Source: Minisyncoccota bacterium
GTDB lineage: Bacteria > Patescibacteriota > Minisyncoccia > Phycocordibacterales > UBA1550
DNA length: 64,000 bases
Direction: 5' to 3'
Assembly (NCBI GenBank): GCA_023229865.1
Contig: JALNYL010000004.1
Coordinates: 17,773-81,772 of the forward strand
Below, in pieces: positions 37,543 to 50,605 of this stretch. Numbering within the stretch: the stretch's first letter is position 1; every line of letters begins with the position of its first letter. The translations under genes and the position numbers were made by a program. A model generated the notes under the pieces. The model saw only the letters and a program-made list of their open reading frames with translations. It searched no databases and was not told where the DNA came from.

Positions 37543-37740
37543 GTAACAAAAAATCCCATCAAACCTACATAATTGTAGTACAAGCGGGATGTGTGAACCT
37601 TGGTTTTCCCCCGAACGGTCGAGTCAGGATGGGGGAGGGTTAGCCTTGGAACTGCTTGTGATTAACCCGTACAATATACGGGAAATCAGGCAAAAAGTAA
37701 AGGGGGCGATTCAGCGAATCGCCCCCTTGGGGGTTGGTCG

Positions 37741-37827
37741 TTACGGGGTCGGCATTTTATCAGCCGATTTCCTTGTGGGGAGTTCGTCGTGGATTGGCCC
37801 GGGGTCATCCTCGTTGAGCGGGTACAT
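37741..37827 (-). CDS. Small ORF, 28 aa (MYPLNEDDPGPIHDELPTRKSADKMPTP), unknown function
   Basis: Excellent SD AAGGAGGT 5 nt upstream of the ATG. Followed on the minus strand by terminator hairpin GGGGGCGATTCGCTGAATCGCCCCC plus T-run (plus coords about 37697-37735). Confidence 0.4.
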   Translation of the reverse strand: MYPLNEDDPGPIHDELPTRKSADKMPTP

Positions 37828-37889
37828 ATTGAACCTCCTTGAAAATTAAAGGGCTCCGCGAGGAGCCCTTGGGTTGCGGCATTGGCCGG

Positions 37890-37940
37890 TTAGACGAAGT
37901 TGAGACCTTCGGGATTCCACGAGGGGTCGCGGGTTCTCAT
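37890..37940 (-). CDS. Small ORF, 16 aa (MRTRDPSWNPEGLNFV), unknown function
   Basis: SD AAAGGAGAA 6 nt upstream. Preceded on the minus strand by a candidate promoter (TTGCAA-16-TATGCT) and a leader of about 120 nt. Confidence 0.35.
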   Translation of the reverse strand: MRTRDPSWNPEGLNFV

Positions 37941-38059
37941 AGGCGTTCTCCTTTAAAGTACAGCTGGGTTAAGGGATTTTCTTAAAGTCACCTCACGGTG
38001 GTTTAAGGGTTCATCGGTAGACTGGATCACCATCCTTTCCCTGGGTTGAAACTAACTAA

Positions 38060-38087
38060 AGCATAGCAAAGGTAGTTAAATTTGCAA
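38060..38087 (-). promoter_or_regulatory. Candidate sigma-70 promoter (TTGCAA-16 nt-TATGCT) driving the small-ORF locus
   Basis: -35 at 38082-38087 and -10 at 38060-38065 on the minus strand. Confidence 0.35.
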
Positions 38088-38462
38088 GAACTTTACCGTA
38101 CTTGTTTCAGAAAGCCGCGCAATCTATATACATTTGCCTAGTCCACATCATGCGCCGCAATCGGACCGTATGCTTTGTAGCATCCTCGTGCTTGCGGTAG
38201 GCTGTGACTTCATCTCCGCTTGGGTCATGAATGACCCAATCCTTGTGACTGCAAGTTTCAGTGTGGCACCTGCAATAGTTCTGGCGAACATGGAACCTGC
38301 GCGGGGAGTCAGGGTCTGCTGGTAGTAATTCAAGGCTCATCTTGCTCTCCTCTTGTCTGTTAATGGTTGAATCCTTTTGCAGTCTAGCAAACTATGTTCT
38401 TACTGCAAGTTATTTTTGATAAAGAAAAACCTCGCAACATGCGCGAGGTTAAGGTAGGGGAA

Positions 38463-38525
38463 TGGAGTCCTGTACAAGAATCGAACTTATGACAGTGCTT
38501 TTCAGGGCACTTACGTTGCCACTCC
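38463..38525 (-). ncRNA. tRNA-like element (acceptor-like stem GGAGT/ACTCC, T-arm TTCGATT, encoded 3' CCA) lacking a canonical D-arm
   Basis: Minus strand GGAGTGGCAACGTAAGTGCCCTGAAAAGCACTGTCATAAGTTCGATTCTTGTACAGGACTCCA. Could not be folded as a standard tRNA by eye. Confidence 0.3.
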
Positions 38526-38629
38526 GTCAACAGGCCTTGATTCCTCCACTAGCTCTATTTTATCAAAGGGAAAGGAAAAGAAAAAGGGCCCCACGTCGTT
38601 GTGGGGCCCTGGGTTGCGGCCGGAGCCGA

Positions 38630-38680
38630 TCAGGTTGTGATCTTGATACTGTTGGTACCATCGCGGATGAAGTTCATCAT
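38630..38680 (-). CDS. Small ORF, 15-16 aa (M-MNFIRDGTNSIKITT), unknown function
   Basis: SD AAAGGAGGTGG immediately upstream. Followed by GC-rich terminator GGGGCCCCACAACGACGTGGGGCCC plus T-run (plus coords about 38586-38612). Confidence 0.35.
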   Translation of the reverse strand: MMNFIRDGTNSIKITT

Positions 38681-38758
38681 CCACCTCCTTTCTCTCTGTT
38701 GACCGGTGTGCGTCATTGTGACGCGGGGTTGATTGGCGTAGGGGCCGGCATGCTGGAG

Positions 38759-38890
38759 TTAACCGGCGCCCAGCACCATGGCCGCCAGGCCGCCGTGGGT
38801 GGTGGAATTGCCGCTGCAGCGCGTGATCAGATAGCTCTTGGTGTTGGCGCCGATCGTCGGGCCAGCAGTCGCGGGCATGGTCTTCTTCAT
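38759..38890 (-). CDS. Small protein, 43 aa (MKKTMPATAGPTIGANTKSYLITRCSGNSTTHGGLAAMVLGAG), unknown function
   Basis: Near-perfect SD TAAGGAGGT 7 nt upstream. GC-rich codons. Lies downstream of the consensus promoter at 39075-39102 and a leader of about 180 nt. The opposite-strand 182-aa ORF at 38462-39010 is probably an artefact. Confidence 0.45.
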   Translation of the reverse strand: MKKTMPATAGPTIGANTKSYLITRCSGNSTTHGGLAAMVLGAG

Positions 38891-39074
38891 GTGATACCTC
38901 CTTATGGAAAGAACAGCGTTGTCCTCCGGCAAAAGCGCGGAGGGATGGATGTCCTGGCGGGCGAATGGCGCGGCGACTTCCTCGTTAGAAACACTGGAAG
39001 CGGCCGATAAGCCCTTGCGGTCGTGGGCGAGTCAATCCCGCCACAGAGCCGTACGTGCCAACCAGAACAAAAGC

Positions 39075-39102
39075 AGTATAGCAGGTTATAAAAATTTGTC
39101 AA
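39075..39102 (-). promoter_or_regulatory. Near-consensus sigma-70 promoter (TTGACA-16 nt-TATACT) on minus strand
   Basis: -35 TTGACA at 39097-39102 and -10 TATACT at 39075-39080. Immediately flanked at 39103-39155 by a 12-bp-arm inverted repeat CCCGTTAGAGGT...ACCTCTAACGGG. Confidence 0.55.
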
Positions 39103-39292
39103 CCCCGTTAGAGGTGAATACTCGCTGCGCTTCACTCGCGACCTCTAACGGGGCTTGCCCCACAGTTTGGATTAGAACTTACGGTCGTTTACAACCTACT
39201 TCTAACGGGCCAGGCCCCGGCGATTCTGGAACCACGTGTCTTTATTGCGCCCAACGTTTCGCTCCTTTAAAAAATCTGCTACAATACCACCT

Positions 39293-39922
39293 ATGATTGT
39301 TACATATTACGGAAAGCAGTTTTTCAAGATTCAGCTCGGGGATCGCACGATTGCGTACAACCCTATTGGCAAGGATTCAAAAGAGAAAGGTTCACGCTTT
39401 GGCGCGGACATCGTCCTTTCCTCGCTTCGTCATGCAGACTTCAACGGCGCCGATCAGTGTGCGTACGGTGAGCGTCAGCCGTTCGTAATCTCTGGTCCCG
39501 GCGAATACGAAGTAGGAGGAATCTTTATTAAAGGTTTCGGTACTGACACCACATACGACAAGGATAAAAAGATCAACACAGTTTTTTCTGTAATGTTTGA
39601 AGGTATCAACCTCTGCTTCCTCGGCTCACTCGCGACCGCTGACTCACTCTCGCGCGAGGTAAAAGAAGGTCTCGGAGAAATCGACGTCCTCTTTGCCCCT
39701 ATTAGCGGGGGAGACGCACTCAATCCTGCCGACGCGCACAAACTCGCACTCGCGCTTGAGACAAAGATTGTTATTCCTATGGACTTTGAACACGCAAAGG
39801 GTTCACTCGAAACCTTTATTAAAGAAGCTGGGGCAAACGCAGAGACAATGGAGAAGTTCACATTTAAGAAGAAGGACCTCGAAGGGAAGGAGGGCGCCGT
39901 CGTTGTTCTTAAGGAGGCTTAA
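39293..39922 (+). CDS. MBL-fold metallo-hydrolase-like protein
   Basis: Beta-lactamase-fold pattern (GDRTIAYNPIG...ADIVLSSLRHADFNG...VLFAPISGGDALNPADA). TACAAT at 39277-39282 lies upstream of the ATG at 39293. Confidence 0.5.
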   Translation: MIVTYYGKQFFKIQLGDRTIAYNPIGKDSKEKGSRFGADIVLSSLRHADFNGADQCAYGERQPFVISGPGEYEVGGIFIKGFGTDTTYDKDKKINTVFSVMFEGINLCFLGSLATADSLSREVKEGLGEIDVLFAPISGGDALNPADAHKLALALETKIVIPMDFEHAKGSLETFIKEAGANAETMEKFTFKKKDLEGKEGAVVVLKEA

Positions 39923-45344: not shown

Positions 45345-45722
45345 ATGACTCAAAAAATCACCACTACCGCAATTGCAGCAGCTATTCTCTCTCTCCCTCT
45401 CTTGTCTGCTGCTCAAGTCGGAATCCCTTGCAATGGTCCTGATTGTACCTTCGACTCGCTTATCCAGCTAGTGAATAACATCATTAAGTTTCTTATGTTT
45501 GGCGTAGCCGTCCCTCTCGCTGCTATTGGCTTTATGTTTGTGGGGGCAAAAATGGTTTTGTCATCTAATAAAGAGTCGGCAAAGACAGAAGCGAAGGAAA
45601 GTTTTGGGAATATTGTGAAAGGTTTCCTTATTATGCTTGGGGCGTACGTTGTGGTAAAAACAATCGTCTACTCATTTATTACTGATGAACAGAAGACTTT
45701 TATGGGATTCCTGTTTCAATAA
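45345..45722 (+). CDS. Pilin-like small membrane protein (TrbC/VirB2-like architecture), paralog 1
   Basis: Signal peptide, then TM1, a short Lys/Glu loop and TM2 (FLMFGVAVPLAAIGFMFVGAKMVL...FLIMLGAYVVV). Confidence 0.4.
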   Translation: MTQKITTTAIAAAILSLPLLSAAQVGIPCNGPDCTFDSLIQLVNNIIKFLMFGVAVPLAAIGFMFVGAKMVLSSNKESAKTEAKESFGNIVKGFLIMLGAYVVVKTIVYSFITDEQKTFMGFLFQ

Positions 45723-45742
45723 TTAGGAAGATAATATACAAT

Positions 45743-46246
45743 ATGAATACTATGAAAAAGATACTTGGTGGACTCGTGGTTCTAGGGGTGTTTTTAGGAG
45801 GGACTTCTGTCGCATTGGCTGTTCTGCCTTGTGCCGCTGTCCCTAGCCAGTATAAAAATGTGTGGACAGACCTTCCTGCTAGTGCGCAGCAATCTTACTA
45901 CGACATCTATTGTTCTCCTGGCACCGGCTCTACGGGGGCATCCGGCTCTACTGGTTCGGGGGCTACCTTGTCCGCAAATACGAAGTTGCAAAATCCCATC
46001 AAGTATTCAACTTTTTCTGAGTTTGCTGCAGCAATAACCAAAACAGCTGTTCAGGTCCTCCTTCCATTCATCGTCCTTGCCTTCATCTACTCAGGCTTCC
46101 TCTTTGTGAAAGCACAGGGTAACGAAAAAGAGCTCGAAGAAGCAAAGCAGGCAATCTGGTACAGTCTCATTGGTGCCTTCATTCTCCTTGGGGCGTGGGG
46201 ATTTGCGCAGATTATTAGTCAGACGGTTTCAACAATTACCCAGTAA
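45743..46246 (+). CDS. Pilin-like small membrane protein, paralog 2 (with Gly/Ser/Thr-rich insert)
   Basis: Signal peptide and the same C-terminal two-TM core (VLLPFIVLAFIYSGFLFV...AIWYSLIGAFILLGAWGF). Confidence 0.4.
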   Translation: MNTMKKILGGLVVLGVFLGGTSVALAVLPCAAVPSQYKNVWTDLPASAQQSYYDIYCSPGTGSTGASGSTGSGATLSANTKLQNPIKYSTFSEFAAAITKTAVQVLLPFIVLAFIYSGFLFVKAQGNEKELEEAKQAIWYSLIGAFILLGAWGFAQIISQTVSTITQ

Positions 46247-46252
46247 TCTACT

Positions 46253-46537
46253 ATGGACTTCAAAGAATTTGTTAATTTTCTTGTTGGCACACTTATCAAG
46301 CCACTTTTCTCGCTCTTTTTGGGTGCTGCAGTAGTCTTCTTTTTGTGGAATATGATGGGGGTCATTCAGAAGAACGATCAACCAGAAGAGCTCGCAAAGA
46401 TGAAAGAAAAGGCTATTTGGGGGATTATCGCTATCGCGGTGATGGTCTCAATGTGGGGATTGGTCAACTTTTTTGCAGGGTCACTCAGGCTGACCAATAC
46501 TCCTCTTGACCTAGAGCGTTTCAACCAAACCTTGTAG
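46253..46537 (+). CDS. Pilin-like small membrane protein, paralog 3
   Basis: AAVVFFLWNMMGV...AIWGIIAIAVMVSMWGLVNFF. Confidence 0.4.
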   Translation: MDFKEFVNFLVGTLIKPLFSLFLGAAVVFFLWNMMGVIQKNDQPEELAKMKEKAIWGIIAIAVMVSMWGLVNFFAGSLRLTNTPLDLERFNQTL

Positions 46538-46620
46538 TTTTCTCGGGGGTTTCGTATAATTAACAGATACGATCAATTAGTATTCGTACATCATAATTAA
46601 CATTTAATAAATTAATAAAC

Positions 46621-46968
46621 ATGAAAAAAGTTATTGTATTGGGTGCCTTTTTTGCCCCATTTATCGCGAGTGCTCAGATTGCCCAGGGGGCAAGTACGGT
46701 TCCTGGTCTTATTGCGTTCTTGAAGGACGCGCTTAGCACCGCTACGGTCCTTATTCTTGCAGCTGCAGTTGTATACTTCCTTTGGAACGTATTCGGCTTC
46801 GTTATGGCAGCAGGGGACTCAGATAAGCGCGCAGAGAAGCAGAGCGGTATTATCTACGGCGTTATCGGTATCGCGGTGATGGTATCTATCTGGGGCCTCG
46901 TAAACTTCCTTACGTCTTCAGCAAAGCTCGACACAACAACACGTACAGCTCCATCACTTTCTCTCTAA
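46621..46968 (+). CDS. Pilin-like small membrane protein, paralog 4
   Basis: Signal peptide. AAAVVYFLWNVFGF...IIYGVIGIAVMVSIWGLVNFL. Confidence 0.4.
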   Translation: MKKVIVLGAFFAPFIASAQIAQGASTVPGLIAFLKDALSTATVLILAAAVVYFLWNVFGFVMAAGDSDKRAEKQSGIIYGVIGIAVMVSIWGLVNFLTSSAKLDTTTRTAPSLSL

Positions 46969-50353: not shown

Positions 50354-50533
50354 ATGTTTATTTGTATTTTATTCCTGACGTTGGGTTTGTTCCGGCTTGC
50401 GATTCTGATTTTTGTACCTCAAAAATCATGTCGTAAGATTTCGAGCAACTAAGTTGCGAGAAATTTACGACCCGACGCAAGTGAAGCAGTTCACTTGCTC
50501 CCACGCCAAGAAAATCCTGGCGGATTTTCTTTG

Positions 50534-50605
50534 AGGCGTGGGCGAGAATCGAACTCGCGTATAGAGGTTTTGCAAACGACTGCCTTACCACTTGGCTACC
50601 ACGCC
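50534..50605 (-). tRNA. tRNA-Cys (anticodon GCA), imperfect anticodon stem
   Basis: Acceptor GGCGTGG/CCACGCC, discriminator U73 (a Cys identity element), anticodon loop TTGCAAA, T-arm GCGAGTTCGATTCTCGC. The anticodon stem has two mismatches. Confidence 0.6.

What the first reader, a model, noticed from the sequence alone, without database searches (positions are those of the whole stretch)
38596..39160. GC-rich minus-strand locus: consensus promoter, structured leader of about 180 nt, then 43-aa and 15-aa ORFs with perfect Shine-Dalgarno sites
Between rpsA and the MBL hydrolase gene lies a stretch of about 65% GC in a roughly 50% GC genome. On the minus strand it carries a TTGACA-16-TATACT promoter at 39075-39102. 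A GC-rich leader with long-range complementary segments follows (UGGCGGG...CCCGCCA; CGCUUCC...GGAAGUCG). Next comes a 43-aa ORF (MKKTMPATAGPTIGANTKSYLITRCSGNSTTHGGLAAMVLGAG) with TAAGGAGGT, then a 15-aa ORF with AAAGGAGGTGG and a GC-rich terminator. SDs this strong on the same strand argue for real small genes. They may be a riboswitch- or attenuator-controlled small protein, a RiPP-like precursor (a GG motif precedes a hydrophobic C-terminal segment), or a toxin-like peptide. The plus-strand 182-aa ORF over the same DNA looks like antisense noise.
Basis: seen in the sequence. Interest (0 to 1): 0.7.

Follow-up and report, generated by a model that had tools for sequence, protein, structure and literature searches.

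The report
Conserved small-peptide gene cassette in Yonathbacteria
The GC-rich stretch is a real, strongly signalled gene for a 43-residue peptide of a new family found only in a narrow group of ultra-small (CPR) bacteria; the peptide's job is unknown, and no riboswitch or peptide-modifying enzymes are involved.

Summary

The organism is a Candidatus Yonathbacteria-like member of the Paceibacteria (CPR). The spacer between the divergent rpsA and MBL genes is a variable island of small-gene cassettes.

About 18 distinct relatives carry the same cassette at the same spot. Each has a conserved promoter, a strong SD, an ORF of 16-46 aa, a 3'UTR element in several members, and a terminator.

The peptides share an N-terminal motif, A-x-A-[G/D/S]-P, which reads ATAGP in the window. 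Synonymous codon variation at that motif shows it is kept at the amino-acid level. The ORF shows three-base periodicity (GC3 0.86) and its indels are multiples of three. It is therefore a real coding gene.

The rest of the peptide evolves almost neutrally. No fold is predicted, and neither Pfam nor NCBIfam matches.

The long leader occurs only in the window's subgroup. Its interior is not conserved, but a helix that locks the 5' end is kept. I read that as an mRNA stabiliser, not a riboswitch.

No RiPP maturase lies nearby. The peptide's function is unknown. A SecM-like (RAGP) nascent-peptide role remains a minority possibility.

Directly downstream lies a conserved tRNA-Cys-derived gene with an 8-nt anticodon loop.

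The parts
39103..39153 (-). Perfect 13-bp inverted repeat (CCCCGTTAGAGGT ... ACCTCTAACGGGG, 25-nt loop) abutting the -35 hexamer. A third copy lies at 39198-39209.
   Evidence: 3 copies against 0.13 expected. The segment is 80-87% identical in L081. Relatives carry unrelated long palindromes at the same place. Its role is unknown.
39075..39102 (-). Sigma-70-type promoter TTGACA-16-TATACT with a TG extension. The predicted transcription start is near 39068.
   Evidence: 11 of 12 matches. The motif CTTGACAAAT..TCTGCTATAMT is conserved at the same position next to the MBL gene in many relatives.
38891..39069 (-). 5'UTR of about 178 nt. Closing helix P1 pairs 39069-39061 with 38958-38950. Inner hairpins lie at 39042-39025 and 39005-38972, and a further hairpin at 38943-38923. 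A GUUCU repeat sits at 38916-38906.
   Evidence: P1 appears in the independent minimum-energy folds of all five long leaders, with compensatory changes. The interior is poorly conserved. Rfam gives no hit.
38896..38904 (-). Shine-Dalgarno sequence TAAGGAGGT of ORF1.
38759..38890 (-). ORF1, 43 aa: MKKTMPATAGPTIGANTKSYLITRCSGNSTTHGGLAAMVLGAG. The family motif A-T-A-G-P is encoded at 38872-38858.
   Evidence: Homologous ORFs occur at the syntenic site in about 18 distinct relatives. Synonymous codon variation is seen at the motif. GC1/2/3 is 0.48/0.61/0.86. Indels against L081 are 3 and 18 nt.
38710..38724 (-). 3'UTR hairpin GCGTCA-CAA-TGACGC inside a conserved element (AATGACGCACACCGG, resembling AACTGACRCACAGCGC in relatives).
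   Evidence: The surrounding 30-nt window (38741-38713) is 90% identical to L081. The element recurs in L006, L008, L012, L021 and L087.
38630..38692 (-). ORF2 (MMNFIRDGTNSIKITT, 38680-38630) with an 11-nt SD, GAAAGGAGGUG. The start codons lie in an 8-bp hairpin at 38684-38663.
   Evidence: This is the best-conserved part of the unit against L081 (93%), but it is found only in the window and L081. L001a and L084 carry unrelated mini-ORFs here.
38576..38610 (-). Intrinsic terminator: AGGGCCCCAC-aacgac-GTGGGGCCCT followed by TTTTTCTTTT.
   Evidence: A clear stem-plus-T-run terminator closes the unit in the family members examined.
38463..38536 (-). Adjacent separate gene: a tRNA-Cys-derived tRNA-like RNA with an 8-nt anticodon loop (CCUGAAAA), discriminator U73 and an encoded CCA end.
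   Evidence: Rfam tRNA model, 35.3 bits. ARAGORN does not call it. It is conserved in L081 and L001 with 4 compensatory pairs. The syntenic homologue in L085 is tRNA-Cys(GCA).

Best explanation
The locus is a self-contained expression cassette for a small peptide. It is one of several such cassettes in the variable spacer between the divergent rpsA and MBL-hydrolase genes of Candidatus Yonathbacteria-like CPR bacteria.

Shown:
- A near-consensus promoter, a consensus SD, a 43-aa ORF and an intrinsic terminator form one unit.
- The same unit occurs at the same genomic spot in about 18 distinct relatives, and as a tandem pair in one of them.
- The peptides form a lineage-restricted family. Its members share an N-terminal motif, A-x-A-[G/D/S]-P, at residues 3-11.
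- Synonymous codon variation at the motif shows that it is kept at the amino-acid level. The remainder is rich in Gly, Ala and Thr, varies in length and evolves fast.

Inferred:
- The 178-nt leader is not a ligand sensor. Its one conserved feature is a helix that pairs the first nucleotides of the transcript with a segment about 110 nt downstream.
- Together with the very strong SD, that helix most likely protects the mRNA from 5'-end-dependent decay. The Bacillus aprE and hbs leaders work this way. The result would be high peptide output.
- The peptide most likely acts in trans as a short, unstructured, rapidly diversifying effector.
- Its conserved N-terminal motif would be the handle for recognition or processing, and the tail the variable part.

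The partner or target of the peptide is not known.
For: - Features and their statistics.
- Orthologous units in L081 and L001 (two tandem copies in L001).
- Family at the syntenic site. Of 12,268 SD-led small ORFs, 39 carry the motif, and 28 of those 39 have a TTGACA 67-240 nt upstream; those 28 mark the cassette at this spacer.
- Codon table at the motif: Pro uses all 4 codons, Arg uses CGC/CGA/AGA, and Ala, Thr and Gly also vary synonymously.
- GC3 is 0.86 in frame against 0.48 and 0.61 at the other two codon positions. Host genes have GC3 of 0.52.
- dN/dS is 0.37-0.40 in two subfamily pairs and about 0.9-1.1 in the window's subgroup.
- Family restricted to this clade.
- No known family matches.
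- The 5' end is paired in all four long-leader transcripts tested (probability unpaired 0.01-0.20).
- 5' stem-loops and ribosome binding as mRNA stabilisers: reference list of PMC3997798 (Hambraeus 2002; Agaisse & Lereclus 1996) and the abstract of PMC5737220.
Against: - There is no expression or proteomic data.
- The peptide has no predicted fold (pLDDT 54.5), no export signal and no partner gene.
- In the window's subgroup the peptide body evolves nearly neutrally. That would also fit a role for translation itself rather than for the product.
- The segments best conserved against L081 are non-coding or belong to ORF2. RNA-level functions therefore coexist with the coding one.
- The stabiliser role of the leader rests on analogy only. 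The ribonuclease repertoire of this organism was not examined.
Confidence: 0.6

Rival explanations
1. ORF1 is a cis-acting nascent-peptide element. The ribosome pauses at the early A-[R/T]-A-G-P codons, as it does at the RAGP core of SecM. The paused ribosome then stabilises the mRNA or remodels it, for example by exposing the sequestered ORF2 start. The peptide product itself would not matter.
For: - The only strongly conserved part of the peptide is a short motif. It reads ARAGP or ARASP in L004, L007/L093, L101, L103 and L107.
- RAGP is the SecM arrest core. uORFs that cluster with SecM also carry LAGP, RADP and RASP, so the third position varies G/D/S there as it does here.
- ORF length and tail vary freely, and dN/dS is about 1 in the window's subgroup.
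- RAGP, RAPP and RGPP are absent from 1078 long ORFs of these genomes (0 observed against 4.1, 2.1 and 2.2 expected).
- The ORF2 SD and start codons lie in a conserved hairpin.
Against: - The Arg is reported as irreplaceable in SecM, ApdA and ApdP. The window peptide and most family members have Thr, Gln or His there.
- The motif sits 3-11 residues from the start, not at the C-terminal end of a tunnel-filling peptide.
- No regulated gene follows. Most members are monocistronic and end in a terminator.
- The motif lies about 190 nt upstream of the ORF2 SD.
- A middle motif ([FY]L-x-N-S-I) and Gly-rich ends are conserved within subfamilies. That points to selection on the product.
Confidence: 0.17
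2. ORF1 is a precursor of a modified or exported peptide (a RiPP, bacteriocin or pheromone). The first 9-10 residues would be a leader cut after A-x-A or before Pro. The modifying and export genes would lie elsewhere in the genome.
For: The layout is a conserved N-terminus followed by a hypervariable tail. One relative has a tandem duplication, distribution is patchy, and the neighbouring cassettes also encode short Trp/Asp/Gly-rich peptides.
Against: - No radical-SAM, YcaO, LanB/C/M, lasso or C39-peptidase transporter gene was found among the 20 larger ORFs scanned between about 26.3 and 49.2 kb.
- The rpsA-MBL neighbours are the same whether or not the cassette is present.
- The putative leader is only 2-11 residues long.
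- Cys is rare, and the acceptor-residue spacing expected of lasso peptides is not kept (read directly from the peptides).
- There is no Sec-type hydrophobic region.
Confidence: 0.1
3. The transcript is mainly a structured non-coding or dual-function RNA. The ORFs would be secondary.
For: - The whole transcript folds with z = -4.5.
- GC is raised in every family member (0.54-0.66 against 0.43-0.49 for the host loci).
- The 3'UTR hairpin and the ORF2 start region are the best-conserved parts against L081.
- A 3'UTR element recurs across the family.
Against: - Conservation at the amino-acid level and three-base periodicity are clear.
- A start codon with an SD is kept in every member.
- Rfam gives no match.
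- Leader and 3'UTR lengths vary widely.
Confidence: 0.08
4. The leader is a riboswitch or attenuator that controls expression of the small protein.
For: The leader is long and GC-rich and forms a multi-stem junction. A GUUCU segment is repeated just upstream of the SD and could compete for the 3' strand of P1.
Against: - No Rfam family matches, even at E<=10.
- No conserved junction nucleotides exist. The interior is 0-40% identical to L081.
- Most family members lack the long leader.
- The SD is not consistently sequestered.
- There is no terminator inside the leader.
Confidence: 0.04

Closest known systems
RAGP/RAPP-type ribosome arrest peptides (SecM, ApdA/ApdP, B. subtilis YwcI)
   Same: A short conserved x-A-[G/D/S]-P core, which reads exactly RAGP in several family members. 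The rest of the peptide is variable. Such sequences are rare in proteomes.
   Different: In the known cases the essential Arg is present, whereas the window and most members have Thr, Gln or His. The known motif lies at the C-terminal end of a longer peptide and upstream of a regulated gene such as sec, yidC or sacT. Here the motif is N-terminal and the unit ends in a terminator.
Stabilising 5' leaders of highly expressed Gram-positive mRNAs (aprE 5' stem-loop, hbs structured 5'UTR with a strong SD, cryIIIA STAB-SD)
   Same: A helix involves the very 5' end of the transcript, and the SD is near-perfect. The neighbouring cassette even carries an SD-like sequence, GGAAAGGAUGGUGAUCC, about 90 nt upstream of its ORF, as STAB-SD does.
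   Different: There is no sequence homology. The decay enzymes of CPR bacteria were not examined, and mRNA stability was not measured.
Small-peptide operons such as B. subtilis yrzI/spyTA (several tiny ORFs on one stable mRNA)
   Same: Two tiny SD-led ORFs lie on one short, structured, terminator-bounded transcript (abstract of PMC12067863).
   Different: No sequence similarity and no evidence of toxicity. ORF2 is present in only two genomes.
Peptide pheromone and class II bacteriocin precursor genes
   Same: The N-terminus is conserved and the remainder hypervariable. Copies can be tandem, and distribution among close relatives is patchy.
   Different: There is no double-glycine or Sec leader, and no linked exporter, peptidase or receptor.

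Membership tests
Bona fide protein-coding small ORF | Start codon and SD conserved at the homologous position in orthologues | tested here: met
   About 18 distinct units all carry an SD-like purine-rich motif and a start codon, ATG in all but one, at the same place.
Bona fide protein-coding small ORF | Selection at the amino-acid level: synonymous variation at conserved residues, codon periodicity, indels in multiples of three | tested here: met
   Codon table at the motif. GC3 of 0.86 against 0.48 and 0.61 at positions 1 and 2. Indels of 3 and 18 nt against L081. dN/dS of 0.37-0.40 in two subfamily pairs but about 1 in the window's subgroup.
Bona fide protein-coding small ORF | Peptide or ribosome occupancy detected | not testable with these tools
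   No Ribo-seq or proteomic data are available.
Riboswitch (any Rfam class) | Match to an aptamer covariance model | tested here: not met
   The only hits are the terminator hairpin and the neighbouring tRNA.
Riboswitch (any Rfam class) | Conserved core nucleotides across orthologous leaders | tested here: not met
   The interior is 0-40% identical to L081. Most family members lack the long leader.
RAGP/RAPP arrest peptides | Core R-A-[G/P]-P with an essential Arg | tested here: not met
   The window has T-A-G-P. Arg is present in only 5 distinct members: RAGP in four and RASP in one. The requirement for Arg is from PMC12992588.
RAGP/RAPP arrest peptides | Motif near the C-terminus, upstream of a regulated gene whose SD is structurally masked | tested here: not met
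   The motif lies at residues 3-11. The unit ends in a terminator. The ORF2 hairpin is about 190 nt away and occurs in only two genomes.
RAGP/RAPP arrest peptides | Ribosome stalling with Gly in the P site and Pro in the A site | not testable with these tools
   This needs toeprinting or in vitro translation.
RiPP precursor | Maturase or leader-peptidase genes in the neighbourhood | tested here: not met
   Pfam scan of 20 larger ORFs between about 26.3 and 49.2 kb.
RiPP precursor | Conserved leader followed by a hypervariable core | tested here: inconclusive
   The pattern is present, but the 'leader' is only 2-11 residues long.
Type I toxin | Transmembrane-length hydrophobic helix and an overlapping antisense RNA | tested here: not met
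   The longest hydrophobic run is about 10 residues. No plus-strand promoter-like site lies within 38576-39102.
Amino-acid attenuation leader peptide | Run of regulatory codons, alternative terminator and antiterminator, and a downstream biosynthetic operon | tested here: not met
   No operon follows. The next gene, a tRNA, has its own -10-like element.
Canonical elongator tRNA (the neighbouring gene 38463-38536) | Cloverleaf with a 7-nt anticodon loop | tested here: not met
   The cloverleaf is supported: 92% of cells pair and 4 pairs show compensatory change. The loop, however, is 8 nt (CCUGAAAA) in all three genomes, and ARAGORN does not call the gene.

The most novel reading that the evidence does not exclude
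The A-x-A-G-P small ORFs could be stand-alone, N-terminally acting ribosome-pausing elements. That would be a SecM-like RAGP core used without a downstream gene, tuning the fate of their own mRNA. In the window's subgroup they might also work together with the adjacent conserved tRNA-Cys-derived tRNA. Its 8-nt anticodon loop (CCUGAAAA) could read UUC or UUCA, as found in ORF2 (AAC-UUC-AUC), making the pair a small recoding or mistranslation module.
Probability: 0.07. Interest if true: 0.8.

Novelty: new member of a known kind. Interest (0 to 1): 0.42.

Why it matters
CPR bacteria have tiny genomes, so a gene with a near-consensus promoter and SD that is kept at one spot across many species is probably doing something useful. 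Yet gene callers miss this family or give it the wrong start, and it has no name.

The locus gives a concrete, testable example of lineage-specific small-protein genes in uncultivated bacteria. It also shows that the rpsA-MBL spacer is a hotspot where such cassettes accumulate.

Some members carry the otherwise avoided RAGP sequence at their N-terminus. That makes the family a cheap test case for whether such cores can act outside the classical arrest-peptide context.

The neighbouring tRNA with the 8-nt anticodon loop is a separate lead for work on unusual decoding.

Tried and rejected
- Rfam at gathering and at E<=10 gave nothing for the leader or the transcript.
- tmRNA and permuted tmRNA: ARAGORN found none.
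- blastn against plasmid and phage collections gave only chance matches of 28-45 nt.
- Exact look-ups of rpsA, MBL and the 43-aa ORF in the assembly index found nothing on record.
- A single-peptide search found only the query itself. Profile searches added only close family members. The exhaustive HMM search added only two long repetitive proteins, judged to be chance.
- Pfam and NCBIfam gave no hits on the peptides.
- AlphaFold gave no confident fold.
- Plus-strand ORFs were rejected as not conserved and without domains.
- Lasso-peptide logic (Thr at -2, Gly at 1, Asp or Glu at 7-9) was checked by eye on the peptides and is not consistent.
- A Sec signal peptide was rejected: A-x-A is present but there is no hydrophobic region.
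- An exact 16S-tail complement (AAAGGAGGTGATCC) is not present as such. Only near-matches with a one-base insertion occur.
- +1 frameshifting at UUCA in ORF2 cannot be distinguished from the zero frame with two nearly identical sequences.
- Literature searches found no description of small-protein families in the Candidate Phyla Radiation or of tRNAs with 8-nt anticodon loops in Patescibacteria.

Full report
OBSERVATION

- TTGACA-16-TATACT lies at 39102..39075. It matches 11 of 12 positions, has a TG extension, and is the only such site in the 2.2 kb scanned.
- A leader of about 178 nt follows.
- TAAGGAGGT is followed, 5 nt on, by the ATG of a 43-aa ORF (38890..38759).
- GAAAGGAGGTGG precedes ATGATG and a 16-aa ORF (38680..38630).
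- A 10-bp GC-rich terminator with a T-run lies at 38610..38576.
- GC is 0.62-0.64 over 38600-38900, against 0.471 for the whole window.
- The leader folds with z = -2.2 and the whole 501-nt transcript with z = -4.5.
- AAGGAGGT-N3-8-ATG occurs only six times in 64 kb (0.06 expected). Three of those sites lie in 37825-38903.

WHOSE GENOME, AND WHAT IS THE CONTEXT

The rpsA product is 97% identical to proteins of Candidatus Yonathbacteria / Paceibacterota MAGs. The MBL hydrolase (Pfam Lactamase_B_3) has close relatives in groundwater metagenomes.

In about 100 fetched loci rpsA and the MBL gene are divergent neighbours. The spacer between them ranges from 134 to 3194 nt and is 1751 nt in the window. 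The spacer is therefore a variable island between two housekeeping genes.

THE UNIT IS CONSERVED

blastn and nhmmer find the whole unit in L081 (a 784-kb metagenome contig) and in L001, where it is tandemly duplicated. Part of it is found in L002.

I read the spacers of 18 close relatives. I then scanned all loci for SD-led small ORFs of 12-60 aa.
- Of 12,268 such ORFs, 39 carry [AS]-x-A-[GDS]-P within the first 17 residues.
- 28 of those 39 have a TTGACA 67-240 nt upstream. Those 28 mark the cassette in the rpsA-MBL spacer, next to the MBL gene and facing rpsA.

About 18 distinct peptides result. Examples:
- MKIMPATAGPT...
- MKYATAGP...
- MYARAGPTVAFLQVISDIASGIGAGG
- MKKPFANATADPANATNFLDNSISAYMAAIGARPDI

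Every unit examined ends in an intrinsic terminator. Several share a 3'UTR element (AACTGACRCACAGCGC, which resembles AATGACGCACACCGG in the window).

CODING OR RNA?

At the motif:
- Pro uses all four codons.
- Arg uses CGC, CGA and AGA.
- Thr uses ACT, ACC and ACA.
- Gly uses GGT and GGC.
- Ala uses four codons.

This is conservation at the amino-acid level. Further points agree:
- ORF1 has GC1/2/3 of 0.48/0.61/0.86. Host genes have GC3 of 0.52.
- Indels against L081 are 3 and 18 nt.
- The plus-strand 182-aa ORF is broken up in L081 and has no domain.

ORF1 is therefore a real gene.

Constraint on the peptide is uneven. dN/dS is 0.37-0.40 in two subfamily pairs. It is 0.86-1.07 among the window, L081 and L001a. 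In the window's subgroup little beyond the N-terminal motif and the C-terminal GLAA-x-ALG is held.

AlphaFold predicts no fold (pLDDT 54.5). Pfam and NCBIfam give nothing. Profile searches of 5.8 billion proteins and an exhaustive HMM scan of 1.84 billion representatives recover only this clade's 'hypothetical proteins', often with wrongly called starts.

THE LEADER

Rfam gives nothing.

Against L081 the interior of the leader is 0-40% identical. The promoter and upstream palindrome are 80-87% identical, the 3'UTR hairpin 90% and the ORF2 start region 93%.

Only four genomes have long leaders of 144-178 nt: the window, L081, L001 (both of its copies) and L002. The other family members tested have 43-93 nt.

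What the five long leaders share is a closing helix. It pairs the first nucleotides of the transcript (GUUCUGG) with CCAGRAC about 110 nt downstream.
- It appears in each independent minimum-energy fold.
- It carries compensatory changes: GUUCAG/CUGAAC in L002 and GUUCCUGAGU/ACUCAGGGAC in L001b.
- The 5' end is paired with probability 0.80-0.99 in the four long-leader transcripts tested.

I infer a 5'-end-protecting, mRNA-stabilising leader. Its effect would be reinforced by ribosome binding at a near-perfect SD, as described for aprE, hbs and STAB-SD. This is analogy only and has not been tested.

A ligand-sensing riboswitch is unlikely.

ORF2

ORF2 has an 11-nt SD, and its start codons lie in an 8-bp hairpin. 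It is nearly identical in L081 but absent elsewhere. L001a and L084 carry unrelated mini-ORFs at that position. Whether ORF2 is translated or serves as an RNA element cannot be decided from two near-identical sequences.

WHAT THE PEPTIDE DOES

The neighbours are a DEAD-box helicase, an ECF sigma factor with a DUF5667 protein, gyrA, a methyltransferase, a solute-binding protein and T4SS pilins. None is a RiPP maturase or a C39-peptidase exporter.

There is no transmembrane-length hydrophobic segment and no antisense promoter.

My best reading is a strongly expressed, trans-acting, unstructured and rapidly diversifying small peptide. Its N-terminal motif would be the handle for recognition or processing.

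The main rival is a cis-acting nascent-peptide pause.
- For it: five distinct members read ARAGP or ARASP. RAGP is the SecM core, and SecM-like uORFs show the same G/D/S variation. RAGP, RAPP and RGPP are absent from 1078 long ORFs of these genomes.
- Against it: Arg is reported as irreplaceable, and the window has Thr. The motif is N-terminal. No regulated gene follows.

COMPARISON AND NOVELTY

The locus is a new, unnamed, clade-restricted small-protein family inside an array of similar cassettes. As a kind of thing, an SD-led small ORF with a structured UTR, it is known. It fails the membership tests for riboswitch, arrest peptide, RiPP precursor, type I toxin and attenuator.

SIDE FINDING: A tRNA WITH AN 8-NT ANTICODON LOOP

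Immediately downstream (38463-38536) lies a tRNA-like gene.
- It has U73 and an encoded CCA end.
- Its anticodon loop is the 8-nt CCUGAAAA, invariant in the three genomes that carry it.
- Three genomes show four compensatory pairs, two of them in the anticodon stem.
- The syntenic gene in L085 is an ordinary tRNA-Cys(GCA).
- The window has another tRNA-Cys at 50533-50605.

This may be the most unusual object in the region, but it is a separate gene.

VERDICT

The locus is a real small-peptide gene of unknown function and of moderate interest.

Noticed in passing
window 38463-38536 (-); L081 9291-9364 (-); L001 8958-9033 (+): A tRNA-Cys-derived tRNA-like gene with an invariant 8-nt anticodon loop (CCUGAAAA), a possible GAA anticodon, U73 and an encoded CCA end. 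It has its own -10-like TAAAAT (38562-38557) and terminator (38450-38428). Three genomes show four compensatory base pairs. ARAGORN misses it. The syntenic gene in L085 is a normal tRNA-Cys(GCA), and the window has a second, canonical tRNA-Cys at 50533-50605.
   Followed up: partly
window 38087-37849 (-): A second small-gene cassette. Its promoter is TTGCAA-16-TATGCT (38087-38060). Its leader is 90-97% identical to L081 and contains GGAAAGGAUGGUGAUCC (38040-38024). That sequence is a near-complement of the 16S rRNA 3' tail and lies about 90 nt upstream of the ORF, as STAB-SD does. The small ORF is MRTRDPSWNPEGLNFV (37940-37890) and the terminator lies at 37870-37849. The same leader precedes ...GWED/GWDG peptides in many relatives, including some that lack the first cassette.
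   Followed up: partly
window 37827-37700 (-): A third cassette: an AAGGAGGT SD, the 28-aa ORF MYPLNEDDPGPIHDELPTRKSADKMPTP (37827-37741) and a 13-bp terminator (37728-37700). Relatives encode peptides with a W-P-D-G-D-G motif.
   Followed up: no
window 38340-38107 (-): A 77-aa Cys/His-rich ORF (..CRCHTETCSHKDW..) with an SD. It is conserved in L081 (..CNCHPETCCCNYW..) and has no Pfam or NCBIfam family.
   Followed up: no
window 37550-37700 (-): The region just upstream of rpsA (GTTAATCACAAGC ... CTAACCCTCCCCC ... CCCGCTTGT) is 70-88% identical in more than 30 loci, while the rest of the spacer is not. It is a candidate rpsA leader or S1 autoregulatory element. Rfam gives no hit.
   Followed up: partly
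window 39255-39295 (+): The MBL-hydrolase gene looks leaderless. The extended -10 element TGCTACAAT ends 7 nt before its ATG (39293), and there is no SD. This segment is nearly identical in L001 and L081.
   Followed up: no
L001 7960-8020; L002 9090-9140; L008 9440-9490; L101, L103, L015, L092, L102 (spacers shown): Long perfect palindromes (stems of 15-25 bp) of mutually unrelated sequence lie just upstream of the cassette promoter and of the rpsA promoter in different genomes. In L001 and L081 one arm repeats the MBL-proximal sequence GGAGCGAAACG. They may mark cassette boundaries or act as insulators.
   Followed up: no
L081 20219-20306 (+): ARAGORN reports a 'tRNA-???' with a 2-nt anticodon (gc), lying next to tRNA-Leu(cag) and just upstream of a convergent tRNA-Leu(tag).
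   Followed up: no
window 45345-46968 (+): Three consecutive small genes match TrbC/VirB2 and T4SS pilin families.
   Followed up: no
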